IMG/VR virus record: IMGVR_UViG_3300030104_003872
Location: 11,291 to 75,290 of that record
DNA from: a virus
DNA: 64,000 bases
Reading direction: 5' to 3' (one strand)
Below the pieces are notes generated by a model, which made no database searches, was not told the DNA's origin, and saw nothing but the letters and a program-made list of their open reading frames with translations. Both the position numbers and the translations under genes were made by a program. This document shows, piece after piece, positions 21,449 through 38,129 of the stretch (its first letter is position 1; every line of letters begins with the position of its first letter).

Positions 21449-21545
21449 GCCCCTGTGAGAGAACAAAGGTCCGGAGAAAAAAGGTCAGGAGAAAAAGGTC
21501 TGGAGAAAAAGGTCACGCTGACAAAGGTCAGCCCCTGTGAGAGAA
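21449..21545 (+). repeat. iteron-like array: five AAAGGTC between 15-bp direct repeats
   Basis: AAAGGTC at 21465, 21480, 21494, 21508 and 21523; GCCCCTGTGAGAGAA at 21449 and 21531. Confidence 0.85.
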
Positions 21546-21600
21546 AACACGAGACGCCACCCATGATGACGCCTCGCTTACGTTAGTCCTCTGTCTCGAT

Positions 21601-21789
21601 TCAATTCATCTCAACAAGTGTCTGAATTAAGCATTGCTCCAGTTGTTGCGGGGTCATCTCTGCGTTTATGCCGAGGTCTATTGGTGTTCTCACTAGAGTT
21701 GTTATTACACCTTCCTGACGCCCGTCGTCTCCAACGACTGCGTGTTGCACGATTTTCGCGGTCACTTCTCCTATCTTTATTTTTCTCAT
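21601..21789 (-). CDS. hypothetical early protein
   Basis: AGGAGG RBS; TATA at 21838-47. Confidence 0.6.
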   Translation of the reverse strand: MRKIKIGEVTAKIVQHAVVGDDGRQEGVITTLVRTPIDLGINAEMTPQQLEQCLIQTLVEMN

Positions 21790-22047
21790 TTCATTTCCTC
21801 CTATGGGCTTTCCGCCCTACCTCCTCATGGAAGCCATAGTATATATACTTTGTGTATTTACGACCTCCACCTGAGAACTCTTTCTCGGCTCGGGGTGAGG
21901 CCCCCAAAAAGTAGTGTCGGGGAGAGAGAGGCTCGGGGAGAGGCCCTAAAAGACGCTCTCTCGCCCGGTCCGCCCCCGAGTAGGCGTTTGAGTGCGAGTC
22001 GTGATGCCAGACCGCCCCTCCGAGATGTCGTGGCTGAGTCGTACGTT

Positions 22048-22075
22048 TCTCCGGAGACCGCAATGTTTATAACCC
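22048..22075 (+). promoter_or_regulatory. early promoter: TCTC-CG-GAGA palindrome, 8-nt spacer, TTTATAA
   Basis: Same geometry as ten other early promoters. Confidence 0.7.
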
Positions 22076-22112
22076 CCTACCCCTACAGCGAGGTAGGCCA
22101 AGAGGCCGGGAG

Positions 22113-22460
22113 GTGAAAAATCTGGAAACTGAGAATTACTGGGAGAACTGCGAGAGAAAGACAGGAGCGGCGCTCGGAAAGTTGGGAGTCAAGACCGCCA
22201 AGAGTATTGGCGTAAAAGGAGCATGGACTCTAAAATACCGAGGCAAGGCAAAAATACTCGTTGGTTGCATGAGGAGAGTTGAATCCGAGTGGGCTGACAA
22301 GAGTATTCTGAACGAGAAAAAGGACAGAGTTGCTGAGCACGTTACAGTCTGTGAGCACGGAGTGGCAGTTGGAGCATCCACGAGAAAGGTTGCGATAGAG
22401 CTGGCTAAGAAATCCGAGCACTGGTGCGAGAAGTGTGCCGCGAGAACCGCCGTCCTTTGA
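22113..22460 (+). CDS. C/H-W family protein, copy 2
   Basis: GAWTLK.R.KA...VGC and VCEHG...GASTRKVAIELAK..EHWCEKC; start uncertain (GTG 22113 or CTG 22122). Confidence 0.75.
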   Translation: MKNLETENYWENCERKTGAALGKLGVKTAKSIGVKGAWTLKYRGKAKILVGCMRRVESEWADKSILNEKKDRVAEHVTVCEHGVAVGASTRKVAIELAKKSEHWCEKCAARTAVL

Positions 22461-22970
22461 GACGCGACGTAAATCCAATGACCCCCGAAAGGGGCGAGGA
22501 TGTACTCTCTGGGGTCACGACTCTCTAGTATTGAGGCTCGACCCTATTTGCACAAAGGTCGGGGGGTCACGACTCCGCCCCTTCTCGACCCTAAACGCAC
22601 AAAGGTCAGAAGCCTCCGGGTCCGCCCCAGAGAGAGAAGGCTCGATTCTCACTCATCTTAACCCCTAACCCGAGAACTCGAGCGTTTCTCCGTGTGCGGG
22701 CGGGCGAGCGAGTACTCAAATGTATGACATAAAAGGACCCTGAGCCGACGGGTCACGCCCCACGACTCACTGCTCATCACGACACGCATCTCAGGAGAGG
22801 AGCACGTTTTTTTAGTGGGAGCACAGGTCACCAGAGCCCCCCTACTCTACACGAGCGGACCCTAGAAGGCTTGAGCCCCTCAGGAATCTCGTGGGTGATG
22901 AGCTCCGGCAGGTATTTCTCCCACCAGAGCCTTTACGTCATCTCGAATAACTATCTCGGGGATAGAATAC

Positions 22971-23378
22971 TCAGACGCTCGCATCCTTGATGCTCTGTCT
23001 TGATTTCTCACACCAGATGTGAGCCAGTTTGCATAGCTCGATTGCTTTCTTTCTCGATGATGCTCCCATCACTGACCCATAGTCTGTGACCGCAACATGA
23101 GTTGGTGCAACCATCTCGCCATTTACGAGAATGGTCATGCCTTTGGTCGCTTCGGTAACTTGCTCATCCGCGTTCTCCACGAAAATGCAACCGACCCGAC
23201 ATCCAGCCTTCCTTCTCATCTTCAAAGTCCATGCTCCGGCTCTTCCGATGGTTCTCGCAGTCTTGGCTCCGTCCTTGCCGAGATGTGCTCCAGTTGAAAC
23301 TGTTGCTCCATCCCAATACATGGTCGGGGTTTTCTCTGCTTTACTGCTCTTCTTAGTGCTCTTACTAGTTTTGCTCAT
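22971..23378 (-). CDS. C/H-W family protein, copy 3
   Basis: GAWTLKMRRKAGCRVGC and GASSRKKAIELCK..HIWCEKS; clearly paralogous to 22113. Confidence 0.8.
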   Translation of the reverse strand: MSKTSKSTKKSSKAEKTPTMYWDGATVSTGAHLGKDGAKTARTIGRAGAWTLKMRRKAGCRVGCIFVENADEQVTEATKGMTILVNGEMVAPTHVAVTDYGSVMGASSRKKAIELCKLAHIWCEKSRQSIKDASV

Positions 23379-23480
23379 AAAGTTCTCCTCCTTGTCTCCA
23401 ATACGTGTCTCCGAGTCACGGTAAGGTTCTCATTCAATGTCATTCTCATCGTCCGCCCTACATGACCAGATAGAAGTTAT

Positions 23481-23608
23481 AGGATATAAAGTTTTCGGAC
23501 TCTTGAGTTAGACCGCCCTCACCGTGAGAGTAGTGGAGAAGTCGTAATGTTTTCACTCGAGTTGTCGATGCCTACGTAAAAGAGAACAGGGAGGCAATTC
23601 TCCGCCCC
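23481..23608. promoter_or_regulatory. composite intergenic module 1
   Basis: Minus-strand TATA 23481-90, ACTCTTGAGT 23499, ACTCGAGTTGTCGATG 23555, AAAAG 23578, TCCGCCCC 23601. Confidence 0.8.
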
Positions 23609-23612
23609 TGTC

Positions 23613-24041
23613 TCAATCTCTTCTAGTTTGACCATATAGCCGAGATTCAAATGCTTGCTCGGCTTGTTTCTCTAGTCTCTGTACTTCTGCGTGCTCGTCA
23701 ATTTTCTCTAGTACCTCTGCCACATCTTTCTCGGCCTGTCTCTTATTGTATATCTCCCAAACTTTGTCGGTTACGTTTCTCTTAACCATTTCTCCGAAGT
23801 GTCTCCATTGTCCCTCGTTTATGATATCTCTAGTCTTGTCATCAGTCAATGACCCAAGACCCATGTGTGATAATTTCTCCATTAGAGAATCTATTACGAC
23901 CGGACTGTCATGGAGTTTATCGTACTCTATTGAGTATATTTTGTCTATCTCATTTATTGTGAGTACGTCATCGGTATTTCTCCGGAGGTCTAATCTCCAA
24001 CCTCTGCTGAAATAGGTCCATTTTATCTCAGAGTATGACAC
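23613..24041 (-). CDS. hypothetical early protein
   Basis: Lies between modules 1 and 2; GTG start next to the upstream stop. Confidence 0.6.
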   Translation of the reverse strand: MSYSEIKWTYFSRGWRLDLRRNTDDVLTINEIDKIYSIEYDKLHDSPVVIDSLMEKLSHMGLGSLTDDKTRDIINEGQWRHFGEMVKRNVTDKVWEIYNKRQAEKDVAEVLEKIDEHAEVQRLEKQAEQAFESRLYGQTRRD

Positions 24042-24188
24042 CTATCTCCACCAACAGTCGAAATGTTCAGGCTCAATCGTTTCCTTCTCGGACTTGGTGG
24101 CTCCTTTCTTAACGAGAACCACTCGCCCCTTAAAGAGTTTATTAGCCAACTCTTTTGTTATCTCATATTCATTACTTCTCAATTTCAT
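24042..24188 (-). CDS. hypothetical protein (48 aa, not in ORF track)
   Basis: AAAGGTGA RBS; MKLRSNEYEITKELANK...CWWR*; first gene after the module 2 promoter. Confidence 0.5.
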   Translation of the reverse strand: MKLRSNEYEITKELANKLFKGRVVLVKKGATKSEKETIEPEHFDCWWR

Positions 24189-24242
24189 TTCTCTATTTCA
24201 CCTTTCCTCGGCCTTCCGGCCTACTCTGAGGATGGAAGTCAT

Positions 24243-24346
24243 AGGATATAAACATTTCTGACTCTTGAGTTGTCGCGTGTAGCGTAATAATTTACTCGAG
24301 TTGTCGATGACTACACAAAAGGTCTTGCTCTTGACGACTCCGCCCC
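24243..24346. promoter_or_regulatory. composite intergenic module 2
   Basis: TATA 24243-52, ACTCTTGAGT 24261, ACTCGAGTTGTCGATG 24294, AAAAG 24317, TCCGCCCC 24339. Confidence 0.8.
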
Positions 24347-24382
24347 AACTCTACCGCGTGAGGCAAAGGGGGTATCTCGCAA

Positions 24383-25195
24383 TCACTCGTAATGCGGAGA
24401 ATCCGCGTACTCGTAAAGACCAGTTATAGGTTCGACCTTATAGAAGTGCTCTTTTGCACAGACCCATCCGGTCGGTGTATATCCCTCGGGATAAGTCGAA
24501 CTAACTGTCTCGTCACCGCCTAGAGATTCCCAATCCGGCTCCCATTGTGCTCCATTCGCTCGCCTGTCTTTTATCTCTTGTAACCATTGTATTCTCTTAA
24601 GTTCTCTGAGAACGGCATAGGCTTCTCGGAATGTATTAAGTGGTCCGAGGAAAGCATCGTGGCTCACAATAGAGCGATACCATCCGCCCTCCTCTGGTCC
24701 GCCGTATGCTCTTACTTTCTCGTACCTGCTCACATATATTTGGTCGCCGTGATTCTTCTCCCAATAACCTTCCTCGGGGAAGAAATCGTACTCACCTTCT
24801 TTGAGCAGATATAGTTTCTCCATACCTGAGCCAGCGTAATGCCATCTCTGATAGTCCCACTGCTCTTTGCGGTACTCGTAAAGTGTAACGAGCCAGTCGC
24901 CGTTGATACTCTGATATTTATCTCCTATTCGCTCAGGAAGACCATTTTCGTCTTGTTCTCTGCAATATTGCTCAAACGCCTGTTGCTCAGTCTGATGTCG
25001 AATTCTCTTCTGCTTGTGCTCACGCCTTGACTCGCTATGCTTTAGGTCATAGACCCAAGCACGAGTGGATAGCAATGTTCTCGCTAAACCGGTCAGTTCT
25101 GCATTCTCTTCAAAACTTCTCTTTTCGTCGTATAATTCTTTCTCTTTCTCGTAATCTGTCATATTTTTCTCACCTCCCTTATGGTCTGACTCCAT
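24383..25195 (-). CDS. hypothetical early protein (YGGPEEGGW motif)
   Basis: Long ORF; GGAGGTGA precedes an internal Met (about 25162), which is the likely true start. Confidence 0.65.
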   Translation of the reverse strand: MESDHKGGEKNMTDYEKEKELYDEKRSFEENAELTGLARTLLSTRAWVYDLKHSESRREHKQKRIRHQTEQQAFEQYCREQDENGLPERIGDKYQSINGDWLVTLYEYRKEQWDYQRWHYAGSGMEKLYLLKEGEYDFFPEEGYWEKNHGDQIYVSRYEKVRAYGGPEEGGWYRSIVSHDAFLGPLNTFREAYAVLRELKRIQWLQEIKDRRANGAQWEPDWESLGGDETVSSTYPEGYTPTGWVCAKEHFYKVEPITGLYEYADSPHYE

Positions 25196-25213
25196 TTCAT
25201 TGTATTCTCTTGA

Positions 25214-25570
25214 TTATAACTCATTAACTGCATCTCTTAATTCGACTTCATTGGCTATTCGAGTTGCTTCTCGATGTGCCTTTAATCTCCGGATGTAACT
25301 CCTATCTTCTTTCTCTAATGTATCGAACTCTTCACCTGCGAATCTCGCATAGTTGGTCAATAATGCGTGGAGATTAATACGATGCACTCCGCAACTATAT
25401 CTCATTAGTTTTAACGAGTGCCTATCTCCCTTCATGGGAGATGATTGCATCTCTAATAGTTCGACCTGTAAGTCAAACTCTTTCATTTTCTCTAGTAACT
25501 CTTTCTGTAACTCAACTGCTCTAATCATAGAGTTTATGAGTTCCATTTCTTCATCCTCCGTTTCCGCCAT
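25214..25570 (-). CDS. hypothetical helical protein (leaderless)
   Basis: ATG about 20 nt downstream of the module 3 TATA. Confidence 0.65.
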   Translation of the reverse strand: MAETEDEEMELINSMIRAVELQKELLEKMKEFDLQVELLEMQSSPMKGDRHSLKLMRYSCGVHRINLHALLTNYARFAGEEFDTLEKEDRSYIRRLKAHREATRIANEVELRDAVNEL

Positions 25571-25589
25571 GTAGAGGTATAGGGGTTCT

Positions 25590-25693
25590 AGGTATTAAAC
25601 CTTTCTAACTCCTGAGTATCCTCAGAGAATGATAGATTTACTCGAGTTGTCGATGGGTTGGTAAAAGAGAATAGGATTGTGAATCTCCGCCCC
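25590..25693. promoter_or_regulatory. composite intergenic module 3
   Basis: TATA 25590-99, ACTCCTGAGT 25608, ACTCGAGTTGTCGATG 25640, AAAAG 25663, TCCGCCCC 25686. Confidence 0.8.
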
Positions 25694-25699
25694 ACACGA

Positions 25700-26176
25700 C
25701 TAGTAATTAAAATCGGTCAGGGGAAAGTCATTCTCTTCGACTATCCTTTCGTTGTTCTCAAAGAACTTCCTCACATGCTCAAGACCTATCAGATGGGCTC
25801 TACCGGACTTACTTCTATTGTCGATAACTGATGGGTCATCTGCAAACTGCTCGTTCAGTATGCTCAGATATAATCTCTTAGCCACATCATACTCTTGAGG
25901 TTTCCATAATAAGACCTCTTCTGTCTCGACATATCTTTGCTCAGTTCTAAATCGAGTGTTGATTCGCTCTAATTGCTCATCATCCATGATTTCTCTGCTT
26001 CTGAGCAGAATAAAACCATGCTCATGATGACCTAGTTCCTCGTCATAACTCTTATTCACAGACCATATTAAATCTCTTAATTCAGATTTCTCTTCACCAG
26101 TTCTGCTCATCCATGAACGAGCAAGTGATTGTGGTGTCGTGTGTCGCCACTCTGTACGTGACCTGACCAAAATCAT
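25700..26176 (-). CDS. hypothetical early protein
   Basis: ORF in the minus-strand operon; true start may lie further upstream, near GGAGGTGA at about 26225. Confidence 0.55.
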   Translation of the reverse strand: MILVRSRTEWRHTTPQSLARSWMSRTGEEKSELRDLIWSVNKSYDEELGHHEHGFILLRSREIMDDEQLERINTRFRTEQRYVETEEVLLWKPQEYDVAKRLYLSILNEQFADDPSVIDNRSKSGRAHLIGLEHVRKFFENNERIVEENDFPLTDFNY

Positions 26177-26256
26177 CCTGTCCTCTGATATTTTATACTC
26201 GTATTCGTCTATCTCTATTCACCTCCTTTAGACTCCAAATCTCCCATCTATGAATC

Positions 26257-26595
26257 TCATTGCAGAGAACTTTCCTTCTCTTGCTTTTGCATCTCGTACA
26301 TCATCTTTCTCCCTTCTATACGAGCCTTCCACATAGAGATACCAAAACTCATTGCTTGTTGTCTCTTTTCCATATCCTCATCAAACGGGTCCATACCCAT
26401 TCTCGCGGGTAAGACCATAGTGGCGTCGCATAAGTCGCAACATCTCGAATCGAAATCTTTTGGGTCAGCAAGGAGTGGGTAGGGATTATTACCCATGTAT
26501 TCTCCGGTCTTGAATAATAACTCGTTGGTATGAGGGTGTCTTGGTCCCTTAATCTCTTTCTTACAGAGACAACACTTAAGATTACTCTTCCTCAT
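26257..26595 (-). CDS. Zn-finger protein
   Basis: CCLC...GNNPYP...RCCDLCD..V.PAR. Confidence 0.65.
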   Translation of the reverse strand: MRKSNLKCCLCKKEIKGPRHPHTNELLFKTGEYMGNNPYPLLADPKDFDSRCCDLCDATMVLPARMGMDPFDEDMEKRQQAMSFGISMWKARIEGRKMMYEMQKQEKESSLQ

Positions 26596-26779
26596 CGTTG
26601 ATTGCTCCTTCTAATAGTCGTCGAATGACACTAGGGTCAATAGCAGACTCTTTGATAAGAGCCATAAACTCTTCGGCCGTTTGACCTGTTGCTACCGTTT
26701 CGCCTGTCTCTTTGCTTACAACTCTGAATAAAGGAGCATCCGCACCCGCATTCTCTGTCTCTACATCAATTACGGTCAT
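26582..26779 (-). CDS. hypothetical protein
   Basis: AGGAGTG RBS; coupled to the next gene. Confidence 0.55.
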   Translation of the reverse strand: MTVIDVETENAGADAPLFRVVSKETGETVATGQTAEEFMALIKESAIDPSVIRRLLEGAINDEEE

Positions 26780-26939
26780 ACTTATGCACTCCTAGCCTCA
26801 TACTGTTTTTTGGTCAGTCCATACCTTCTCAGGTAATATTTGTCGTTCATCTCTTCAATCATATTTCTCATCTTGTTGCTCATCTTCTATTCGCTCCTGT
26901 TTCATGTGGGCTCGCCACGCTAATATCTCTATATGTATT

Positions 26940-27104
26940 TTACTCATCTACTTTCCTCCTTATCCTTAAATACTCATGGCAGGGCTCGCAAAGAGTTGCA
27001 CTCTCACCTGCCCGACCTGAATGGAAATCAGTCGGCATATTACCGACAACCCACCATGACTCGGCATGGAATAAGTCGTCACCACATTGGTCGCAATAGG
27101 TCAT
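26940..27104 (-). CDS. small Zn-ribbon protein (not in ORF track)
   Basis: MTYCDQC...LCEPCHE; ATGA overlap with a small leaderless ORF at 27101-27232. Confidence 0.45.
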   Translation of the reverse strand: MTYCDQCGDDLFHAESWWVVGNMPTDFHSGRAGESATLCEPCHEYLRIRRKVDE

Positions 27105-27251: not shown

Positions 27252-27376
27252 AGGATATAAAGGTTTTGGACTCTTGAGTTATGGTGTATTTTAACTCGAG
27301 TTGTAGGTTATAGTAGTAAAAGGTTCGGTAGAGCACTACTCCGCCCCAACTCAAGAGTTGGAAAGGTTTATATTCT
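27252..27376. promoter_or_regulatory. composite intergenic module 4 (divergent promoters)
   Basis: Minus TATA 27252-61 with ACTCTTGAGT 27270; ACTCGAGTTGT 27294; AAAAG 27318; TCCGCCCC 27340; ACTCAAGAGT 27349 with plus TATA 27367. Confidence 0.8.
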
Positions 27377-30365: not shown

Positions 30366-30533
30366 AGTATATATAATGTTCTAACTCTTGAGTTGTGCTT
30401 GAGTTGTAGCCTACTGCCTTACTACTAGAGTAGATACTACGCGTGTAGTGAGTGAGTGCTCTTATTATTGGTAAAAGATTCGGTAGAGGTATTCTCCCGC
30501 CCGTAACTCGTGAGATGGAAACATTTATGTGCC
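30366..30533. promoter_or_regulatory. composite intergenic module 5 (divergent promoters)
   Basis: Minus TATA 30366-75 with ACTCTTGAGT 30384; AAAAG 30473 and TCCCGCCC 30495; ACTCGTGAGA 30506 with TTTATGT 30524. Confidence 0.75.
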
Positions 30534-31086: not shown

Positions 31087-31653
31087 ATGAGCAAATCAGC
31101 CGAAGAAGAGTTAATAGAAGAGTGGAAAGAACCAGAGCAACCAATGGATTATCTGATTCGACAACAAGAGAATGCTATCACGCAGACCAAGTATCTATTC
31201 TACAAACTCTATGATAAGAGTGACAAAGGATGGAGTGACGAGCAGAAAGAAGAGTGGGGTAATCATATCGACGAAAACGGTTTCCGCAAGTCGGAGTTAT
31301 TCCAAGAAGTACCTGCTCAACACAGATATGTGGTCGCTATACCAGAGACAGGCGAGTGGAAATCATTTAAGACTCGTTCCGAGGTAACACAAGACCGGCA
31401 AGGTGGAGCAATGTACCCCTATGCTAAGTGGTCTAAGCACGAGTCAGCCCGAATGGAGGCCTATGGTGCTATGAAACTCATGAGTTTAGCGTGTTCTAAG
31501 GTCTTACCTGAGAACTGTGATGACGAGCAAGCGTATTTACGACCTTCCGACATTGAAAGAGTTGCACTTATCCTATTAGAGATTGACGCAGAGCGAAGGG
31601 AATTATCAGAGTATTACGATGAGTTAGCCCAAGAATTAGAGGTTTCAGCATGA
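31087..31653 (+). CDS. hypothetical protein
   Basis: GGAGG RBS; ATGA overlap with the helicase gene. Confidence 0.65.
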   Translation: MSKSAEEELIEEWKEPEQPMDYLIRQQENAITQTKYLFYKLYDKSDKGWSDEQKEEWGNHIDENGFRKSELFQEVPAQHRYVVAIPETGEWKSFKTRSEVTQDRQGGAMYPYAKWSKHESARMEAYGAMKLMSLACSKVLPENCDDEQAYLRPSDIERVALILLEIDAERRELSEYYDELAQELEVSA

Positions 31654-33281
31654 GTATTGAAGAAGAGAACCTTCCAGTTAGAGTTTCAGAAAGACTCAAG
31701 GAATTGAGTGACACGAAAAGAAGTGAAATGAGCCTATATCTCTGGCAAGAAGGAGCAATACAGGCTTGGTCAGGCAACGGAGTTGCACGTGACCCTATTT
31801 CTGATAAACCTCTAGATGGTGATAAAGAGTTCTTTGGTATTGTCTCAGCCGTGACCGGTTCTGGAAAGACCTATGTTGCATCAGAGTGTGCGTGGGTCTG
31901 GTTACAGAAGAACCCAACCGGTAGAGTAACCGTATTGGTCCCGTCAAGAGCATTACAGAATAAGTGGAGAAAAGACATGGCCGGAGCGTTCCCCCACATG
32001 AGAATAGGTATGATGGGTGGTGGTAGAAGAGATTTCCGACAAATATCAATAGTGACCATGAATACGGCCGCTAAAGGTCTTCCAGAGACAGACGGTGAGC
32101 ATCTTATCATTGTAGATGAGTGCCATAATATCGGTTCAGAGTTTCGACAATATGCTATTCGTAATAATTCTCATACTGCGGTATTAGGTCTTAGTGCAAC
32201 TCCAGCGAGGGAAGATAGCGGTTTGACCGTTGTATCACACCTATGCGGTCCGGTCGTTTATCAATACAAGTATGACCAAGCACTCAACGACGATGTTATT
32301 ATCCCGTTTAGAGTTAGGGCGGTTGCAGTTCCTCTAACCCATATGGAGCGTTCAGAATATGAAGAGATTACAAATCAGATTAGGAAAATCTCTTTCATCC
32401 TCCGTAAGCGATATGGAGCAGGTACAAATTGGTTTGCACTCAAACAAGACCCATCAGACCCCGATACTGCTTTGACCACGTTCAAAGACCTATGTATGAA
32501 GCGTAAGAGACTTGTAAATGAGTGTCATCTAAGATTCGAGTGCGTTGATGATATATTGAGGTTACACGAGAACAGTAAGACCATGATATTTCACGAGCGT
32601 ATCAAACAAATAGAGTGGATGCACGATAAATACCGAGGCCTATGTCCAGAGACAATACCAAATTGCGAGGACACATGGGAAGAAGTCGCTTTGACCCCAC
32701 CGGACTGTTCCGAGTGGTTAGGCATGAATCCAGAGTTATATCACGGTGATATGACCAAAGGGGAAAATGATAGAGCGTTTGAGGCATTTGCCGAGGGCGA
32801 TGCTAGTATTCTCTTGTCATGTAAGGCTCTTCGTGAAGGAGTTGATGTACCCTCGTGCGACTTAGGTATTATGGTGAGTGGTACTAATTCCGCTCGTGCT
32901 AGAGTTCAGACACTTGGTCGTTGCTTGAGACGTGGAGAAGGTAAAACAGGAGCGATTGTATATTTACTCTATGTCCCAAATACGACTGATGCGAAAGGAC
33001 TCGCTAATCTCAAATATGGTGGAAAACTACCCGACGGTACTATCGAATGGTGGAGATACACCCCCAACAAAGGTCTAGTTAAGTATGGTGAGGAAGAGCA
33101 ACCCGAAATACCTAAGAGGAAACCAAAAGCCGAGAAGAAGAAACATATATGTGACTCGTGTCATAAGGTCTTTCATACGGAGTCAGCATCGTTGTCAGAG
33201 AACCACCATTGCTATCCTCGATTAACCAAGACAGGTCGAAAGCCTATTGACCTTTGGGGTGATATGATTGGTCGAAAGTGA
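31650..33281 (+). CDS. superfamily 2 DEAD/DEAH helicase (XPB/Rad25-like)
   Basis: TGSGKT, IVDECH, GLSATP, EGVDVP and QTLGRCLR; C-terminal C2H2-like CDSC...HH. Confidence 0.92.
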   Translation: MSIEEENLPVRVSERLKELSDTKRSEMSLYLWQEGAIQAWSGNGVARDPISDKPLDGDKEFFGIVSAVTGSGKTYVASECAWVWLQKNPTGRVTVLVPSRALQNKWRKDMAGAFPHMRIGMMGGGRRDFRQISIVTMNTAAKGLPETDGEHLIIVDECHNIGSEFRQYAIRNNSHTAVLGLSATPAREDSGLTVVSHLCGPVVYQYKYDQALNDDVIIPFRVRAVAVPLTHMERSEYEEITNQIRKISFILRKRYGAGTNWFALKQDPSDPDTALTTFKDLCMKRKRLVNECHLRFECVDDILRLHENSKTMIFHERIKQIEWMHDKYRGLCPETIPNCEDTWEEVALTPPDCSEWLGMNPELYHGDMTKGENDRAFEAFAEGDASILLSCKALREGVDVPSCDLGIMVSGTNSARARVQTLGRCLRRGEGKTGAIVYLLYVPNTTDAKGLANLKYGGKLPDGTIEWWRYTPNKGLVKYGEEEQPEIPKRKPKAEKKKHICDSCHKVFHTESASLSENHHCYPRLTKTGRKPIDLWGDMIGRK

Positions 33282-33464
33282 GAAAATACATAGATGCGAC
33301 TTAGAGATTATTGGTTTTGATTATGACCAAAAGAAATGGGAGGTCACAGAACACCTCCGATGTAAAGAGTGCGGTGCTAGAGCAACAAAGATAGTAAAAG
33401 AGGTATATGTTCTTGACTCTTACTCAAAAAATATTAAGACATAGCCGGTAGCGACGTCTACTTG

Positions 33465-33492
33465 ACTCAAGAGTCAGCAATGTTTATATCCT
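33465..33492 (+). promoter_or_regulatory. early promoter (TGACTCAAGAGTCA palindrome, TTTATATCCT)
   Basis: Palindrome core 33465-74, 8-nt spacer; drives leaderless ardC. Confidence 0.8.
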
Positions 33493-33511
33493 AGTTTGAT
33501 ATTTTGGTAGT

Positions 33512-34744
33512 ATGGCGAAAGACGGAGGCTTCGGAAGAAGCATGAGCAAGGAAAAGCGTAAAGAGTTTGAGCGTCAACTTGCTGATGAGTTCATTGAGAA
33601 AATAAAAAGTGGCGATGTCGGTGCTTGGAGTTCAGGTTGGACCAACTTAGGAGGCAATACTATGCCTCATAATACAAAAGGTCGCCCATATAGAGGTATA
33701 AACACAATAATTCTCTGGCTTAGAGGTTCAGATTATAACTCTAATACATGGGGTACTTATCACTCTTGGAAAGAGGTTGCGAGGAAACACGCAATAAAAG
33801 AGGGTAAGTTTGAGTTAAAAATCGGTAGAGATGGAAAACCATACAAGCATACGACTGAGTGGTATGGAGTAAAGCAAGGAGAAAGCGGTACAAGCATTAT
33901 TCTCTGGAAACCACTCACATACAAGAACGAGAAAACCAATAAAAAGACAGGTGAGATAGAAGAGTCTATCGGTATGACCATGTTAATGCGAGTATTTACA
34001 GTATTCAATCGTGACCAGACAGGATTACCTGAGATTATTACAGAAACAGAGTTAGAAGAAGCAGAAGAGTTCAACAGTAGAGAAAAACAATTAGAAAACT
34101 GCCTCAATTGGTACATTGAGAACCCAAATCGTAAGGTGGTCAAGACTGGTGAGATGCTAGTACATCCTCATCCGAAGGCAGGTGAGAAACATACAGGTGA
34201 AGACCCTATATGGGTCGTAAAAGATGGTGATATTATTCTCAAACACGGCGGAGATAGAGCGTTCTATACATCTAGCAGAGATAGGATAGCACTTCCTCTT
34301 CGTGAGCAATTCAAAGAAAATGCGAGATACCTATCTACTAAAGGGCATGAGATTATCCATAGTACAGGTCACCCACTTCGACTTAATCGTGCTCTTGGTA
34401 ATAGATTCGGGAGCGAAGATTATGCTAAGGAGGAATTGATTGCCGAGTTCGGTACTGCCTTTCTCATAGGCTCATTCGGCATACAGGGAGAACTTCGTAA
34501 TGTTGAGTATATCAATAATTGGGCTTCGGTCTTGAGTAAAGAACCTAGATTCCTCATTACTGCGGCTCAAAGAGCACAAAAAGCAGTTAATTATGTACTC
34601 GAACCTTGGGTAGAACACGAGGCATGGCGTGACCAAGAAATAAATGACTTAAGAGAATATCTTGAGGGCAAAGAAATACAAATTACTCCTATGGGTCTTA
34701 ACAGATTACACGGAGATTTATCAGTTATGGAGGAAGAAGAATGA
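33512..34744 (+). CDS. ardC: ArdC-like ssDNA-binding antirestriction protein with a zincin-like domain
   Basis: PYRGIN...W.TY..W, V..GE.GT, FTVFN.DQ; AFY....D.I.LP, HEIIHSTGH, YAKEELIAE, YINNW. Confidence 0.9.
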   Translation: MAKDGGFGRSMSKEKRKEFERQLADEFIEKIKSGDVGAWSSGWTNLGGNTMPHNTKGRPYRGINTIILWLRGSDYNSNTWGTYHSWKEVARKHAIKEGKFELKIGRDGKPYKHTTEWYGVKQGESGTSIILWKPLTYKNEKTNKKTGEIEESIGMTMLMRVFTVFNRDQTGLPEIITETELEEAEEFNSREKQLENCLNWYIENPNRKVVKTGEMLVHPHPKAGEKHTGEDPIWVVKDGDIILKHGGDRAFYTSSRDRIALPLREQFKENARYLSTKGHEIIHSTGHPLRLNRALGNRFGSEDYAKEELIAEFGTAFLIGSFGIQGELRNVEYINNWASVLSKEPRFLITAAQRAQKAVNYVLEPWVEHEAWRDQEINDLREYLEGKEIQITPMGLNRLHGDLSVMEEEE

Positions 34745-34814
34745 GTAAAAAGAAATTGAGTAAAGATGGGTTAGAGATATTTGAGTTCAAACTACCATCA
34801 AAGGAGGAAGAAGA

Positions 34815-34958
34815 ATGAGTTATAAGATATTGAGATTTAGATTTGAAGGAAAAACAAGAGTAATAAAAAGAGGATTGACACTCGAAGAAGCCCAAGAGCA
34901 TTGCCGTGACCCAAAAACAAGTGGAGATGGTTGGTTCGACGGTTATACGGAGGAATAA
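34815..34958 (+). CDS. small conserved-looking phage protein (not in ORF track)
   Basis: MSYKILRF...RGLTLEEAQEHCRDPKTS..GWFDGY; AGGAGG RBS. Confidence 0.6.
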   Translation: MSYKILRFRFEGKTRVIKRGLTLEEAQEHCRDPKTSGDGWFDGYTEE

Positions 34959-34960
34959 AT

Positions 34961-35116
34961 ATGGCTATGAGCAGAAAACATTATAGAGTAATAGCAGAGG
35001 CAATAAGAACAAACGACGATAAGAGGAAAATGATACTAGAACTCAGTATGTTTTTCAAGGAGGATAATCCTAATTTTAACTTGAGTAAGTTTTTGGAGGC
35101 GTGTCATTTTGAGTGA
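34961..35116 (+). CDS. small phage protein
   Basis: MSRKHYRVIA...DNPNFNLSKFLEAC; GGAGG RBS. Confidence 0.6.
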   Translation: MAMSRKHYRVIAEAIRTNDDKRKMILELSMFFKEDNPNFNLSKFLEACHFE

Positions 35117-35294
35117 ATACAAGAAGTGCAACGAGACACAACACGAATGGACTCGACAAGACATGGATGATAGCGAGTTCGATAAATTATCATTGACCTA
35201 CCATTGTTTGCATTGCGGAGCAACGTGCGAGATGGAGGGTGATGTAAGGACAGATGATGGTAGGTTCATAGAGTGGGTGCTGACCGATGAGTAA
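35109..35294 (+). CDS. small Zn-ribbon protein
   Basis: C....HEW...CLHCG; coupled overlaps. Confidence 0.5.
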   Translation: MSEYKKCNETQHEWTRQDMDDSEFDKLSLTYHCLHCGATCEMEGDVRTDDGRFIEWVLTDE

Positions 35295-35778
35295 TTGGTA
35301 CTGTGGCGACCCTTGTTATGTTATACACGACGAAAGATGGGGAGAGTTTTGTAATAAACTCTTTGCACACCCTAGTTATGAGAAAAACAACTACCCAATT
35401 GGTATAGAGTGGGAAGTCGATGGGAAAAAATACGAATTAGAGATATGGGGTTCTCCCGGAGGCGACGGGGTCTGGCGTTTTAGTGCAGGAGAACTTGGAG
35501 TTGATGCGGGATTACTTTCTATCATTCCGGTAGAGTGCCTTGACCCTCAAGAGGCACCATTCGACAGACTAGGTATTATGTTCGAGGAAAAGCCAGTACT
35601 CGATGCCGACTATAATGAGGGTAAAGTATGGTTAAATGGAGAACTAGATAATGATTGGGTCATGTGCGATTGTGGAGAAATGCAAAGGACAGAGCAGATT
35701 TGGGATTGTGAGCATTGTTTTAGTGCAGAGTGCGACAACTGTTACCCATGTTGCGACGGAAATGGTGAAGAGGAATGA
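35287..35778 (+). CDS. hypothetical protein with a C-terminal Cys cluster
   Basis: YCGDPCYV, GGDG and GVDAG motifs. Confidence 0.6.
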   Translation: MSNWYCGDPCYVIHDERWGEFCNKLFAHPSYEKNNYPIGIEWEVDGKKYELEIWGSPGGDGVWRFSAGELGVDAGLLSIIPVECLDPQEAPFDRLGIMFEEKPVLDADYNEGKVWLNGELDNDWVMCDCGEMQRTEQIWDCEHCFSAECDNCYPCCDGNGEEE

Positions 35779-35944
35779 GTAAGATGAATTGTGGATGCGA
35801 GTTTGATGAAGTAGAGTTGGATGAGCGTGTGTTAGGCGAGGCTTGTGGTTGCTCATCATGTCTGGACTGTGGACTCATCAACACACAAGACCCTAATCCT
35901 CAGAATTGGAAATGCTACCCCGACCACCCATGTTCCTGTGACTA

Positions 35945-35972
35945 ACTCAAGAGTTACAAATGTTTATGTACT
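35945..35972 (+). promoter_or_regulatory. early promoter (TAACTCAAGAGTTA palindrome, TTTATGTACT)
   Basis: Core 35945-54, 8-nt spacer. Confidence 0.75.
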
Positions 35973-36117
35973 AGTTAGCGTTAGGTGTAGATGTAGGGGG
36001 TTGTGAGGTGATTACGGTTTTTCCAGACTCGTGTCTTTCATTCAAACGAGTCATCACATTTCATTGTAATTCTCTGGCTGTTGTTGTCTCCACCTCCTGC
36101 AATCAAGGAGATTTAAT

Positions 36118-36468
36118 ATGAGAACAGATAGTTGGTCGGTACATGGAGATGAAATTGACGCAAAAGAGTATAAGAGCCTTGTTGAAGAGGCAGTTGTCAA
36201 AAACATGACCGAAAACAGAGATGTGGAATTAGAATTACTCATCCATGATGGCGAGTTTATGTCTGATGAAGAGATAATAGACAACCTTAGAGGTATGTTA
36301 GATGAGCACGTTTGGTATAGAGTTCTTTTAGACAAATATAGAGCACGCATAAGAACGGCCGAGACACTAATCAAAATGGTCCGTGACCATAATGGCTCTT
36401 TCGCGAGTGAAATTGCTATACAGACCAATGTTGACCTATTCCTAAGACACGGAGGCGAAGAAGAGTGA
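36118..36468 (+). CDS. hypothetical protein
   Basis: AAGGAG RBS after a structured leader. Confidence 0.6.
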   Translation: MRTDSWSVHGDEIDAKEYKSLVEEAVVKNMTENRDVELELLIHDGEFMSDEEIIDNLRGMLDEHVWYRVLLDKYRARIRTAETLIKMVRDHNGSFASEIAIQTNVDLFLRHGGEEE

Positions 36469-36583
36469 CGACAACATATAGACTAGAGATAATAATGGAT
36501 GCAGACGACAAAGACGACTTTATTGATGTGGTTATGAGTCTGAATAGAAGAGAGTTAAGAGAACACGTTAAGGAGATGGATTA

Positions 36584-37162
36584 ATGGCGATAGAGATACT
36601 ACAACAACCTTCTGTTGTGTGGCCGGTAGACCTTGATGCAGAGGATGATGACAGTTTCGGACGGACCTATGCAGAACAGGCTCAAGCATATTTTGAGCGT
36701 CTAAAAGAAAGCCCAGAGTACGGCGTGAGCACAGGTAAATTAGAAGCGACTTACGAAGATTGTCTCATATATGTATTGGCTAACTTCGGTCATGTCGATA
36801 TGAAGCAACTAACACCCTCGGTTGTTAGAGATGCTTATGGAGATAACTGTTGGTACATACATACTCATAAAACTCCACAAAAGACTTTGAGATTATACAT
36901 GAAAGTCGGAAATCCATTATCCGAGTTTGGGAGGCAGAATCAAGATTTGCTCCCAGATAACTACACTACTAGAAGAGTTGTATGTGAATGGTATGGTAGG
37001 GATGGAGGTATAGTTATACTCTATGGTCCAACTCCGGAAGATACAAGATTATGGTCTTTCGGGTGTAATCACTCGATGGCGACTAGGAAGCGGATAGGTA
37101 GTTGTTATAACGAGTATTCGTGCGAATGTGGAGCGAAATGGACGGTGGATTCGAGTGGTTAA
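36584..37162 (+). CDS. hypothetical protein
   Basis: AAGGAG RBS; C-terminal GC.H...C...CECG...VDS. Confidence 0.6.
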   Translation: MAIEILQQPSVVWPVDLDAEDDDSFGRTYAEQAQAYFERLKESPEYGVSTGKLEATYEDCLIYVLANFGHVDMKQLTPSVVRDAYGDNCWYIHTHKTPQKTLRLYMKVGNPLSEFGRQNQDLLPDNYTTRRVVCEWYGRDGGIVILYGPTPEDTRLWSFGCNHSMATRKRIGSCYNEYSCECGAKWTVDSSG

Positions 37163-37430
37163 ATTATTGAGATGGACAGGTAAAGTTGAGGACTTAGGTT
37201 CTGAGAAAGATATATCAATGGAGCGTTATCAGCAGTTAGTCGGTGGTTACTTCGAGTCAATAGTCCTCAAGACAGGCGAAAGAGCGTATGTCAATGAGGA
37301 TGCTTCTTACTCTAACTTACCCCTCAATCCACTATGTTTTCTCCATCATATATACACGCAAGGTAGAGATATTCACCCAAGAGGAAATGTAATAGTTTTC
37401 TCTGATAAAGAATGGAGACAAATGACATGA
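37128..37430 (+). CDS. DUF3846-like protein
   Basis: YQQLVGGYFE...YVNED...PLNP...RGNV; start may be slightly downstream. Confidence 0.6.
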   Translation: MERNGRWIRVVKLLRWTGKVEDLGSEKDISMERYQQLVGGYFESIVLKTGERAYVNEDASYSNLPLNPLCFLHHIYTQGRDIHPRGNVIVFSDKEWRQMT

Positions 37431-37663
37431 GAATTAATGAATTATACGACAAAATATATTGGAACGACAAGAATAGCATAGTAATACTCTGGCACACAGA
37501 CGACGTGAAGTCGATAAGACCGGATTTAGATGATGACCAGTGTATGAAAGTTCTCAATAAGGTTTCTCGCAACCATGACGCTCAGATTGGAGTAAATTGG
37601 GATGTTTTAGAGTTTTGGGCTGACGAGTTATATGGTGTAATGAGGTCAGAGGAAGAAGAATGA
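37412..37663 (+). CDS. hypothetical phage protein
   Basis: W...DV...RPDL.DDQC..VL...HDA..G.NW. Confidence 0.55.
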   Translation: METNDMRINELYDKIYWNDKNSIVILWHTDDVKSIRPDLDDDQCMKVLNKVSRNHDAQIGVNWDVLEFWADELYGVMRSEEEE

Positions 37664-38129
37664 TTCGACCTATGGGACCTTGGTTTAATGAGCCATGCAA
37701 AAATTGTGGCGAGAAAGCAGACAAACAGGTCATTCTAGACCAAGATATTGTCTATCTCTGCGAAAAATGTTACTCTAAAATATGAGTCTTTTTTTGTAGT
37801 TTATTTCCGGTAGAGTTAAAGAGAAAATGCTTCTGCGAGATGTAGCACTCCGACAAAACTATTATAGGGAGAAGGGACAAAAAGGACCACTTGGGGCTTT
37901 CTCACGAGTAGGTTTAACACCGAAGAAATTGACGAAGAGATTCCTGTTACTCTATGGGAATGCGTCTTTTGTGATTCTCAATTTTACATTATCACAGACT
38001 GTAGACCAGATTATTGCCCCGAATGCCTTAAAAGAGGCACATTGGTCTTTCTCGACGACATAGAAAATGATTCTTGGAGACCTAGGGACTATGAATAAGT
38101 TTATATCAAAATACGCCTAGCATCCATTA

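What the first reader, a model, noticed from the sequence alone, without database searches (positions are those of the whole stretch)
21457..37700. GAG/CTC over-representation that starts abruptly and fades with distance
Seen in spot counts per 120 bp: about 14 (21901-22020), about 10 (23641-23760), about 5 (28381-28500) and 0 in a polB sample (52441-52560). The excess appears on both strands, in coding and non-coding DNA. Inference: selection for dense modification or dense protein coating of the DNA that enters next, before anti-restriction functions such as ArdC act. It mirrors the desert.
Basis: partly seen in the sequence, partly recalled or inferred. Interest (0 to 1): 0.75.

Follow-up and report, generated by a model that had tools for sequence, protein, structure and literature searches.

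The report
Evenly spaced GAG/CTC marks saturating early genes
A 75-kb marine archaeal virus packs its early-gene region with the 3-letter word GAG/CTC, about one site every 18 bases and evenly spaced. Independent sequence evidence suggests this word marks a chemically modified base pair that blocks host restriction enzymes. If so, the virus has shaped one genome region for dense coverage by its own DNA modification.

Summary
**Observation confirmed and strengthened.**
- GAG+CTC runs at 56/kb between 21,457 and about 38,060, against about 18/kb elsewhere in the 75-kb genome.
- The left edge follows a 1,102-bp stretch with no sites. The right edge is also a step. The "fade" inside the block is small (observed/expected 2.4 to 1.7).
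With proteins fixed and codons drawn from outside the block, 392 sites are expected and 786 are observed. It also holds out of frame, on both strands and in non-coding DNA.

**New findings.**
1. Sites are evenly spaced by codon choice (gap CV 0.64 against 0.94, z = -12). Same-strand gaps step up at 12 bp, and 96.5% of 40-bp windows hold a site.
2. The block is exactly the early regulon: ten archaeal BRE/TATA promoters carrying a CTCAAGAGT box.
3. Related viruses have the block too, over non-homologous genes and at 52% GC.
4. These genomes purge many restriction-type motifs. Survivors overlap GAG/CTC in one register (AGCT 56 of 56), so the last G of GAG, paired with the first C of CTC, is probably modified.
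5. Block, exemption and even spacing co-occur with a viral amino-methyltransferase and are absent from a complete relative lacking it.

**Interpretation partly supported.** Dense modification is supported. Order of DNA entry is untested. No earlier scan note reports this on other DNA.

The parts
20355..21456 (.). Desert: 1,102 bp with no GAG or CTC, directly abutting the block. It covers ORF 20521-21024 and a small ORF.
   Evidence: last site at 20,354, next at 21,457. The gap is about 22 times the mean gap of the non-block compartment. A low-density zone is also seen in relatives L004, L005, L013 and G004.
21360..21412 (+). GGCCGAAAGGCC hairpin followed by T-runs: a likely terminator closing the late (terminase) unit just before the block.
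   Evidence: Read directly from the sequence.
21450..21552 (+). Iteron-like array AAAGGTCNGGAGAAAA (three copies) bracketed by CCCCTGTGAGAGAA direct repeats. The first GAG/CTC sites of the block lie here.
   Evidence: Read directly from the sequence; function unknown.
21457..38060 (.). GAG/CTC-saturated block, which equals the early regulon: 931 sites in 16.6 kb, mean spacing 17.8 bp, evenly spaced.
22049..22069 (+). Early promoter (CTCCGGAGA-N8-TTTATA variant).
23487..23507 (-). Early promoter CTCAAGAGT-N8-TTTATA.
24249..24269 (-). Early promoter CTCAAGAGT-N8-TTTATA.
25596..25616 (-). Early promoter CTCAGGAGT-N8-TTTAAT.
27258..27278 (-). Early promoter CTCAAGAGT-N8-TTTATA (divergent pair, leftward).
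27350..27370 (+). Early promoter CTCAAGAGT-N8-TTTATA (divergent pair, rightward).
30372..30392 (-). Early promoter CTCAAGAGT-N8-TATATA.
30507..30527 (+). Early promoter CTCGTGAGA-N8-TTTATG.
33466..33486 (+). Early promoter CTCAAGAGT-N8-TTTATA, upstream of the ArdC-like gene.
35946..35966 (+). Early promoter CTCAAGAGT-N8-TTTATG.
31650..33281 (+). SF2 helicase (ResIII + Helicase_C) inside the block.
33512..34744 (+). ArdC-N + zincin-like metallopeptidase (MPTase-PolyVal): a candidate anti-defence gene inside the block.
37128..37430 (+). DUF3846 protein near the right edge of the block.
38098..38130 (+). Plain TTTATA promoter without the CTCAAGAGT box, about 30 nt upstream of the ATG at 38130. 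It starts the replication module and coincides with the right-hand step in site density.
   Evidence: Read directly from the sequence; change point.
49370..50548 (+). Candidate modifying enzyme: an amino-methyltransferase (Pfam N6_N4_Mtase) with motif I DPFCGGS followed by motif IV SCPPY and a C-terminal VEWL tail shared with PolB.
   Evidence: Present in the block-bearing relatives and absent from the complete block-less G001.
50539..51501 (+). Gene overlapping the MTase stop codon. It is MprF-C/DUF2156-like (below the Pfam threshold), carries the same VEWL tail and co-occurs with the MTase. A possible partner in the modification.
51851..52354 (+). Nucleoside 2-deoxyribosyltransferase-family protein in the same cluster, co-occurring with the MTase.

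Best explanation
The window comes from a roughly 75-kb tailed virus of a marine archaeon.

**What the motif is.** In this virus lineage, GAG/CTC is the 3-bp target of a virus-encoded DNA base modification. The modified position is the base pair formed by the last G of GAG and the first C of CTC. The enzyme is most likely the amino-methyltransferase at 49370-50548, possibly working with the overlapping DUF2156-like gene. Both carry the same C-terminal tail as the DNA polymerase, which suggests they act at the replication fork. N4-methylcytosine on the first C of CTC is the simplest chemistry.

**What it does at single sites.** Where this base pair lies inside a host restriction site, the site is protected.

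**What was selected.** Selection spreads the sites evenly along the DNA genome-wide, at about one per 49 bp. In the early regulon (21,457-38,060), codon choice, amino-acid content and non-coding sequence have been driven to near-saturating density:
- about one site per 18 bp;
- neighbouring same-strand sites rarely closer than 12 bp;
- 92-96% of 30-40-bp windows containing a modified base pair.

**Likely purpose (inferred).** The dense marking probably keeps the first-expressed DNA, which also encodes anti-defence proteins such as the ArdC-like protein, shielded or marked against host DNA-targeting factors.

**Shown:** the enrichment, the spacing, the identity with the regulon, the conservation in relatives, the exemption rule and the co-occurrence with the methyltransferase.
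**Inferred:** that the exemption reflects a chemical modification, that this methyltransferase makes it, and what the dense marking is for.
For: **1. The enrichment is not a codon or amino-acid artefact.**
- 786 sites observed against 392 expected with proteins fixed and codons drawn from outside the block.
- The switch is specific: Glu GAG fraction 0.64 inside against 0.26 outside, and Leu CTC 0.22 against 0.04, while Lys, Gln and Arg choices stay unchanged.
- There is an out-of-frame excess on both orientations, z 3.5-6.6. Non-coding DNA has 56.7 sites per kb inside against 17.4 outside.

**2. Even spacing, measured against a null that keeps protein sequence and codon usage.**
- Gap CV 0.62-0.64 against 0.94-0.95 (z -9.5 to -12).
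- Glu-Glu is encoded GAG-GAG once against 18 expected.
- Same-strand gaps step up at 12 bp. Tandem pairs at 12-19 bp have z = +9.8.
- 96.5% of 40-bp windows contain a site.

**3. Negative control.** The relative G001 lacks the methyltransferase and shows random spacing (CV 1.03; empty-window counts match Poisson expectation up to about 40 bp) and no block.

**4. Conservation.** The block sits at the same position in relatives, including one at 52% GC. In G004 it covers DNA with no nucleotide similarity to the window's block.

**5. Exemption rule.** Survivors of purged motifs overlap GAG/CTC so that only the last-G/first-C base pair lies inside the motif.
- AGCT: 56 of 56 non-redundant sites, 44 of them the full GAGCTC (p <= 5e-12).
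- GA|GCAGC: 6 of 7 (p = 2e-5).
- GA|GGCCC: 6 of 6 (p = 3e-6).
- RAATTY|TC: 5 of 5 (p = 7e-6).
- GCGC|TC: 2 of 2.

**6. Co-occurrence with the methyltransferase.** Block-less relatives have zero AGCT with no exceptions. No methyltransferase gene was found in them: G001 is a complete genome, G003 is about 73% complete.

**7. Enzyme family and precedent.**
- The candidate enzyme scores above threshold for the N6_N4 amino-MTase family.
- Mobile-element members of this family with 1-3-bp motifs are documented, and one of them protects entering DNA (PMC5778455, PMC7736820).
- The methyltransferase, its neighbour and PolB share an (L/V)EWL tail.

**8. The block equals the early regulon.** It also contains the ArdC-like, helicase and DUF3846 genes.
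Against: - There is no chemical or kinetic evidence that any modification exists. It is inferred from which sites survived selection.
- The methyltransferase link is a co-occurrence across essentially two clades, so it is confounded with phylogeny. Homology cannot assign the target base: motif IV is an unusual CPPY, and the nearest solved structures include both N4-cytosine and N6-adenine enzymes.
- As a shield against ordinary restriction enzymes, one modified base pair per 18 bp would cover only about a third of 6-bp sites. Protection would be partial unless the relevant threat has a footprint of 30 bp or more.
- A pure shield does not explain why pairs of sites 12-30 bp apart are selected against outside the block, or why a 1.1-kb stretch must carry no sites at all.
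- GATC is never exempt.
- The order of DNA entry and the genome ends are unknown. A contig from the source sample bridges the left boundary.
Confidence: 0.6

Rival explanations
1. Reader or coat model. The sites, modified or not, are arrayed for a DNA-binding protein with an asymmetric footprint of about 12 bp that fills the early regulon cooperatively. It would shut early genes off (or on) at a set time, or physically coat that DNA. This follows the logic of SeqA on clustered GATC sites or phi29 p6 on genome ends. The spacing reflects the footprint. Arrays are avoided elsewhere so that binding does not nucleate in the wrong place.
For: - Same-strand exclusion steps at exactly 12 bp. Convergent pairs peak at 16-18 bp. 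Divergent pairs show no exclusion. This is the pattern an asymmetric footprint would give.
- Pairs 12-19 bp apart are enriched in the block (z = +9.8) but depleted in the rest of the same genomes (observed/expected 0.51, z = -5.9).
- The block equals one promoter regulon, and its promoter box is itself a CTC/GAG palindrome.
- The block has sharp edges and adjoins a stretch with no sites.
Against: - No candidate reader has been identified.
- There is no strict long-range periodicity in the site positions.
- Even spacing also holds at low density across the whole genome. That looks more like coverage than like nucleation arrays.
- The model does not by itself explain why restriction-type motifs survive only when they overlap the site.
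Confidence: 0.2
2. Transcription-factor half-site model. GAG and CTC are half-sites of the factor that recognises the early-promoter box CTCAAGAGT. The thousand dispersed half-sites concentrate or retain that factor over the early region. No DNA modification is involved.
For: All ten boxes lie in the block and contain CTC and GAG. CTCNNGAG gives the d = 5 spike in divergent pairs.
Against: - Single trinucleotides in every flanking context are enriched equally, not the extended box.
- The model does not explain the exemption of purged restriction motifs across the whole genome.
- It does not explain the even spacing outside the block.
- It does not explain the link to methyltransferase presence.
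Confidence: 0.07
3. Expression-level explanation. Early genes use GAG and CTC codons, or early mRNAs carry GAG and CUC motifs, for translational tuning or as targets of a sequence-specific RNase, as with RegB on T4 early mRNAs.
For: - The block coincides with transcription units.
- Sense-strand GAG outnumbers CTC by about 2.4 to 1.
- The largest single component of the excess is in-frame GAG.
Against: - Out-of-frame positions, the antisense motif and non-coding DNA are enriched to a similar relative degree.
- Both GAG and CTC obey the same 12-bp spacing rule.
- No tRNA genes are present.
- The exemption rule concerns DNA cleavage sites.
Confidence: 0.04
4. Compositional heterogeneity without function. 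The block is a foreign or recently acquired segment, or the product of a regional mutational bias.
For: - GC content is slightly higher in the block.
- The left arm is hypervariable between relatives.
- Rare surviving palindromes are concentrated in the block.
Against: - The codon change is specific to GAG and CTC, with Lys, Gln and Arg choices unchanged.
- The property persists over non-homologous genes and in a relative at 52% GC.
- Neither mutation bias nor foreign origin produces under-dispersed spacing, or GAG-GAG avoidance in Glu-Glu pairs.
- The edges coincide with regulon boundaries.
Confidence: 0.03

Closest known systems
Restriction-site avoidance in phage and archaeal-virus genomes (for example Rusinov et al. 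2018, PMC6286503; HF1-group haloviruses, PMC7230728)
   Same: This virus and its relatives purge GATC, AGCT and many other palindromes completely or nearly so. HF1-group archaeal tailed viruses of similar size and gene content do the same.
   Different: The feature here is the opposite sign. One short motif is enriched in one region, its spacing is phased, and purged motifs are exempt when they overlap it. I found none of this in the papers I searched.
Promiscuous short-motif DNA methyltransferases of mobile elements: M.EcoGII (any A), M.HaeV (BA), M.EcoGIX and M.BceJIII (SAY) (PMC5778455, PMC7736820)
   Same: They belong to the same Pfam family (N6_N4_Mtase). They recognise very short motifs and are carried by phages or plasmids. 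They have an anti-restriction role, and M.EcoGIX acts on entering DNA early in transfer.
   Different: - Those enzymes make m6A. The base pair inferred here contains no adenine.
- Motif order is permuted (motif I before motif IV) and motif IV is CPPY.
- No ParB domain is present.
- In those systems the element's genome has not been reported to be reshaped around the motif.
Staged genome entry with early anti-restriction (T7 Ocr and transcription-coupled entry; T5 first-step-transfer DNA). From my own knowledge.
   Same: An early-expressed region encodes anti-defence functions and is treated differently with respect to restriction. The block makes up about 22% of the genome and has sharp limits.
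   Different: T7 and T5 early DNA avoids sites, whereas this block concentrates a protective site. Staged entry and defined genome ends are not shown for this virus.
Clustered methylation sites read by a protein (SeqA on GATC clusters at oriC; GATC cluster in the P1 pac site). From my own knowledge.
   Same: Methylatable short motifs are placed one to three helical turns apart in a delimited region. This gives the region a special state that depends on modification.
   Different: Those clusters span about 0.2 kb and use a 4-bp palindrome. This block spans 16.6 kb and uses an asymmetric 3-bp motif. No reader protein has been identified.
phi29 protein p6 nucleoprotein complex. From my own knowledge.
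   Same: A viral protein coats a viral DNA region with a unit of about 12 bp per monomer and controls early promoters.
   Different: p6 recognises bendability, not a trinucleotide. No homologue was found or tested here, so the resemblance is only numerical.

Membership tests
N6_N4 amino-methyltransferase (Pfam PF01555), for the candidate enzyme at 49370-50548 | A significant match to the family profile above the curated cut-off | tested here: met
   39.8 bits against a cut-off of 26.7, E = 6e-10. Thousands of homologues are annotated as DNA modification methylase.
N6_N4 amino-methyltransferase (Pfam PF01555) | SAM-binding motif I (FxGxG-like) and catalytic motif IV (D/N/S)PP(Y/F) | tested here: inconclusive
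   Motif I, DPFCGGS, is present and invariant. Motif IV is S-C-P-P-Y, with Cys in the position normally occupied by D, N or S, and this is invariant in 18 of 18 homologues. The motif order is permuted relative to beta-class enzymes.
N6_N4 amino-methyltransferase (Pfam PF01555) | Demonstrated methyl transfer to DNA at a defined motif | not testable with these tools
   This needs expression plus SMRT sequencing or restriction-protection assays.
Promiscuous m6A methyltransferases of mobile elements (M.EcoGII, M.EcoGIX type) | Adenine is the modified base | tested here: not met
   By inference, the only base pair shared between GAG/CTC and the exempt motifs is G:C (GA|GCAGC, GA|GGCCC, RAATTY|TC, GCGC|TC).
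Promiscuous m6A methyltransferases of mobile elements (M.EcoGII, M.EcoGIX type) | A recognition motif of 3 bp or less | tested here: inconclusive
   Half-sites and five different overlapping motifs are exempt, so three base pairs appear sufficient. This is indirect evidence only.
Promiscuous m6A methyltransferases of mobile elements (M.EcoGII, M.EcoGIX type) | ParB-domain fusion (M.EcoGIX and M.BceJIII subgroup) | tested here: not met
   No ParB domain is found in the 392-aa protein, although many homologues carry one.
Restriction-site avoidance | Short palindromes far below Markov expectation | tested here: met
   GATC 0 against 234 expected, AGCT 12 against 234, GCGC 2 against 90, and about 25 six-mers at zero.
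Staged-entry early region (T5 first-step-transfer or T7 class I type) | The early region lies at the genome end that enters first, and entry pauses at its boundary | not testable with these tools
   Only assembled contigs were available. The contig ends overlap, as in a circular or terminally redundant assembly. A source-sample contig bridges the left boundary.
Archaeal promoter regulon | A BRE-like purine tract and a TTTAWA TATA box at a fixed distance, repeated before several genes | tested here: met
   Ten copies of CTCAAGAGT-N8-TTTATA, with a GAAA-type tract immediately upstream of the TATA box. All lie in the block.
SeqA-like sequestration or protein coat on clustered sites | A protein that binds the arrayed sites | not tested
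   No candidate was identified. Only the spacing statistics are suggestive.

The most novel reading that the evidence does not exclude
The virus uses the density of one modified trinucleotide as a positional code that divides its chromosome into three states:
- none (the 1.1-kb desert);
- sparse and even (about one site per 49 bp, over the middle and late genes);
- saturated and even (about one site per 18 bp, with a minimum spacing of 12 bp, over the early regulon).

A viral or host protein with a footprint of about 12 bp would read this code to give each domain a different fate, such as accessibility, timing, protection or packaging. This would amount to an epigenetic compartmentalisation of a viral genome written into codon choice. 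Selection at the DNA level would be strong enough to double the glutamate content of the early proteins.
Probability: 0.2. Interest if true: 0.9.

Novelty: new variant of a known kind. Interest (0 to 1): 0.8.

Why it matters
**A new kind of genome adaptation.** Genomes of viruses that infect bacteria and archaea are known to avoid restriction sites and to carry methyltransferases. This case shows what appears to be the complementary strategy. A virus has rebuilt a fifth of its genome so that its own modification site tiles the DNA at near-maximal, evenly spaced density. The rebuilding reaches synonymous codons, amino-acid composition and non-coding DNA.

**If confirmed, it would provide:**
1. 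a 3-bp, probably cytosine-directed, modification specificity in a very large and mostly uncharacterised family of phage methyltransferases with a CPPY motif IV;
2. a purely computational way to read both a modification motif and the modified base from "exemption" patterns among purged restriction sites, usable on uncultured viruses;
3. a measurable length scale (12-bp exclusion, 30-40-bp guaranteed coverage) that constrains what host factor is being countered in marine archaea, whose defences are almost unstudied;
4. a clear example of DNA-level selection reshaping protein composition.

Tried and rejected
- **GGACC/GGTCC as a reciprocal signal.** It looked reciprocal at first but is confined to two collagen-like ORFs at 2-11 kb and is unrelated.
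- **A shared physical terminus inside the block.** I suspected this because relatives G004 and G005 both end there. Mapping showed the ends do not coincide cleanly and the DNA is not homologous, so I dropped the idea.
- **Genome ends from sequencing data.**
  - Only Logan contigs exist for the runs that hold this DNA.
  - When laid on the window, a source-sample contig bridges 18.5-23.3 kb, and no starts or ends can be read.
  - This is no evidence either way on termini or entry order.
  - The lower k-mer depth of contigs inside the block (9.4-10.9 against 15.4) cannot be interpreted.
- **GC skew.** The extremes (26.7 and 57.2 kb) simply follow gene orientation.
- **Strict periodicity.** The Fourier spectrum shows no dominant period apart from codon periodicity. 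The order is nearest-neighbour exclusion plus truncation of long gaps, not a lattice.
- **Named relatives.** Megablast of the block against phage records found nothing. TerL tblastn gave only hits at or below 26% identity.
- **Block proteins.** Pfam and PHROGs found nothing for most of them.
- **Methyltransferase base specificity.** A sequence search against PDB found nothing. A profile search hit both N4-cytosine and N6-adenine enzymes, so homology cannot assign the base.
- **Extending to more divergent methyltransferase carriers.**
  - The 74-kb contig behind L052 is not held, so its presumed block region could not be fetched.
  - Its single AGCT is nevertheless GAGCTC.
- **tRNA explanation for the codon switch.** No tRNA genes are present.
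- **Literature and earlier scan notes.** Searches found no description of a similar enrichment or spacing pattern.
- **GAGGAG avoidance.** The d = 3 depletion (GAGGAG) is not specific to this lineage. It also occurs in the block-less G001 (1 observed against 13 expected), probably as avoidance of internal Shine-Dalgarno-like sequences.

Full report
**The replicon.** The window is the last 64 kb of a single 75,290-bp viral contig whose two ends overlap by about 60 nt. The assembly is therefore circular or terminally redundant.
- It encodes a portal, a large terminase, family-B DNA polymerase, an RFC-like clamp loader, ERCC4 and PD-(D/E)XK nucleases, a DNA methyltransferase, and no tRNAs.
- Its promoters are archaeal: a purine-rich BRE-like tract, a TTTATA box, and GGAGGTGA ribosome-binding sites.
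- The runs that hold it are marine metagenomes.
- It resembles haloarchaeal tailed viruses of the HF1 group in size and gene content but has no close named relative.

**The observation.**
- GAG+CTC is 43-83 per kb from 21.0 to 38.0 kb and 8-27 per kb everywhere else in the genome. The block occurs only once.
- It holds 931 sites against 453 expected from base composition. The rest of the window holds 854 against 1,234.
- The trinucleotide itself is the unit. Its in/out ratio is 3.0 (z = 35), and all flanking 4-mer contexts rise 2-4 fold.
- Change points fall at 21,455 and about 37,950. A 1,102-bp stretch with no sites (20,355-21,456) precedes the block.
- Inside the block, observed/expected declines only from 2.4 to 1.7 (p = 3e-4). 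It then steps down to about 0.8 with no further trend. The "fade" is real but secondary, and the right edge is a step.

- With every protein sequence fixed and codons drawn from the rest of the genome, 392 sites are expected and 786 are observed.
- The excess has three layers:
  - more glutamate (10.1% against 5.6%);
  - a specific codon switch;
  - an out-of-frame excess over codon-preserving shuffles for both GAG and CTC (z 3.5-6.6).
- The codon switch raises the Glu GAG fraction from 0.26 to 0.64 and Leu CTC from 0.04 to 0.22. Lys, Gln and Arg codon choices do not move.
- Outside the block the same out-of-frame counts fall below the shuffles (z -2.4 to -5.3).
- Non-coding DNA shows 56.7 sites per kb inside and 17.4 per kb outside.
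- The enrichment is therefore a property of the DNA duplex (or possibly of transcripts), not of translation.

**Even spacing.**
- Against a null that permutes synonymous codons within each gene, the gaps between successive sites in the block have CV 0.62-0.64 instead of 0.94-0.95 (z -9.5 to -12).
- Gaps of 8 bp or less are halved, and gaps of 40 bp or more are cut from 13% to 5%.
- Glu-Glu pairs are written GAG-GAG once where 18 are expected.
- Pooled over six blocks, same-strand neighbour distances step up at exactly 12 bp and peak at 12-16 bp.
- By orientation:
  - tandem pairs are depleted at 3-11 bp and enriched at 12-19 bp (z = +9.8);
  - convergent GAG>CTC pairs peak at 16-18 bp (z = +7.3);
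  - divergent CTC>GAG pairs show no exclusion.
- As a result, 92% of 30-bp windows, 96.5% of 40-bp windows and 99.5% of 60-bp windows in the block contain a site, and no gap exceeds 84 bp.
- There is no lattice-like long-range period.
- In the rest of the block-bearing genomes, spacing is also more even than chance, at about one site per 49 bp. The CV is 0.86 (z = -5.7), and both short and long gaps are truncated.
- Outside the block, close pairs are strongly avoided: tandem 3-11 bp observed/expected 0.34, 12-19 bp 0.51, and GAGAG 0.25.

**The block is the early regulon.**
- About ten copies of (A)CTCAAGAGT-N8-TTTATA occur in both orientations, all between 22.05 and 35.97 kb.
- The left edge follows a hairpin and T-run terminator, then an iteron-like repeat array.
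- The right edge coincides with a plain TTTATA promoter that lacks the box and opens the replication module.
- The block contains an SF2 helicase, an ArdC-N/metallopeptidase protein and a DUF3846 protein. These are typical of early anti-defence modules.

**Conservation in relatives.**
- Relatives with TerL at least 80% identical show the same low-density zone followed by an abrupt block downstream of the terminase gene. Relatives found through the helicase show the same right-hand step.
- One relative (L013) has 52% GC.
- In G004 the first 4.5 kb of the block has no nucleotide similarity to the window's block, yet carries 61-77 sites per kb. The flanking structural genes are 74-78% identical.
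- The relatives' blocks are evenly spaced too.
- A complete, more distant relative (G001: 73.8 kb, TerL 67% identical) has no block for any trinucleotide. Its spacing is statistically random, which gives a clean negative control.

**Evidence that GAG/CTC marks a modified base pair.**
- An earlier unchecked note (e1-6067112) suggested that restriction-like sites survive only where they overlap GAG/CTC. I tested this.
- The genome purges GATC (0 against 234 expected), AGCT (12 against 234), GCGC (2 against 90), GCAGC, GGCCC, RAATTY and about 25 six-mers. Its relatives carry partly different purge lists.
- All 56 non-redundant AGCT survivors, taken from ten genomes or loci, are GAGCT or AGCTC. 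Of these, 44 are the doubly flanked GAGCTC, although chance favours half-sites about 7 to 1 (p <= 5e-12).
- Survivors of the other purged motifs obey the same register:
  - GA|GCAGC, 6 of 7;
  - GA|GGCCC, 6 of 6;
  - RAATTY|TC, 5 of 5;
  - GCGC|TC, 2 of 2;
  - GATATC|TC and GA|GTATAC|TC also occur.
- In these cases the only base pair shared with the purged motif is the last G of GAG paired with the first C of CTC.
- The simplest reading is that this base pair carries a modification that blocks several host endonucleases, fully when both strands carry it and partly when only one does.
- GATC is never exempt. That fits an enzyme indifferent to modification at that position.

**The candidate enzyme.**
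- The gene at 49370-50548 scores above threshold for Pfam N6_N4_Mtase.
- It has motif I followed by an invariant S-C-P-P-Y motif IV, a permuted order relative to beta-class enzymes. It belongs to a very large phage-associated family whose members are often fused to ParB.
- Homology cannot assign the target base.
- Its stop codon overlaps a DUF2156/MprF-C-like gene (below the Pfam threshold). A nucleoside deoxyribosyltransferase-family gene follows.
- The methyltransferase, its neighbour, PolB and one other protein are the only four proteins ending in (L/V)EWL. This hints at a shared docking site on the replisome.
- All three cluster genes are present in block-bearing G004 and G005. They are absent from the complete G001 and were not found in the 73%-complete G003. 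Those two genomes have zero AGCT and no exemption.
- The literature documents family members on mobile elements with 1-3-bp motifs, and one (M.EcoGIX) that protects entering DNA.

**Mechanism.**
- I conclude, at about 0.6 confidence for the composite, that GAG/CTC is the target of a virus-encoded modification. The early regulon has been selected to carry it at saturating, evenly spaced density.
- What the density is for remains an inference.
- A shield for the first-expressed DNA fits the intense restriction pressure and the anti-defence genes in the block.
- One mark per 18 bp covers only a third of 6-bp sites, however. The relevant threat would more plausibly have a footprint of 30-40 bp.
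- A shield also does not explain why site pairs are avoided outside the block, or why the desert exists.
- Those features, the 12-bp step and the orientation dependence fit a protein that reads the arrayed sites. That model can coexist with the modification model.
- Explanations based on translation, RNA, horizontal transfer or mutation bias are contradicted.

**Limits.**
- There is no chemical evidence for any modification.
- The methyltransferase link rests on two clades.
- Genome ends and order of entry could not be determined.
- I found no description of such an architecture in the papers searched, and no earlier scan note of it on other DNA.

Noticed in passing
window 2335-7770 (-) and 8902-11490 (-): Two giant collagen-like ORFs carry GGACC/GGTCC at 20-60 copies per kb, about seven times expectation. 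This accounts for all of the apparent GGACC excess outside the block.
   Followed up: partly
window 20355-21456: A 1,102-bp stretch with no GAG or CTC covers ORF 20521-21024 (homologues in L013 and G004) and a small ORF. It lies between the terminase gene and the block. It may be a packaging or origin region that must stay unmarked.
   Followed up: partly
window 21450-21552: An iteron-like array, AAAGGTCNGGAGAAAA in three copies, is bracketed by CCCCTGTGAGAGAA direct repeats. It sits immediately after a hairpin and T-run terminator.
   Followed up: no
window 43385-44050, 49370-50548, 50539-51501, 52386-54587: Exactly four proteins end in (L/V)EWL: an unknown protein, the methyltransferase, the DUF2156-like protein and PolB. 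This may be a shared clamp-docking tail.
   Followed up: partly
window 33512-34744, 35287-35778, 37412-37663, 42326-42895, 54578-54958: Five otherwise unrelated proteins end in an acidic EEE or EEEE tail.
   Followed up: no
whole genome and relatives G001, G003, G004, G005, L013: Motif purges are exceptionally broad and differ between lineages. GATC and AGCT are purged in all. GTAC, CTAG, ACGT, CGCG, TGACA, CCAGG, GCAGC, GGCCC, RAATTY and dozens of six-mers are purged in particular lineages. This implies very heavy and shifting restriction pressure.
   Followed up: partly
window 22000-26800, compared with G004:C1:1-4500: The left arm of the block differs in gene content between close relatives. 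Several relatives' contigs end 0.2-1.3 kb into the block. The source-run assembly breaks four times inside the block, and the contigs there have lower k-mer depth.
   Followed up: partly
window 21457-38060 (proteins): Early proteins are unusually rich in glutamate (10.1% against 5.6%) and poor in glycine. DNA-level selection for GAG may be shaping protein composition, or the early proteins may be acidic for their own reasons.
   Followed up: partly
window 39186-39683: A homologue of T4 endonuclease V (pyrimidine-dimer DNA glycosylase) lies just downstream of the block.
   Followed up: no
window 49370-50548 and homologues P0002-P0110: Motif IV of this very large phage methyltransferase family is an invariant S-C-P-P-Y, with motif I preceding it. 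This is an uncharacterised permuted subfamily.
   Followed up: partly
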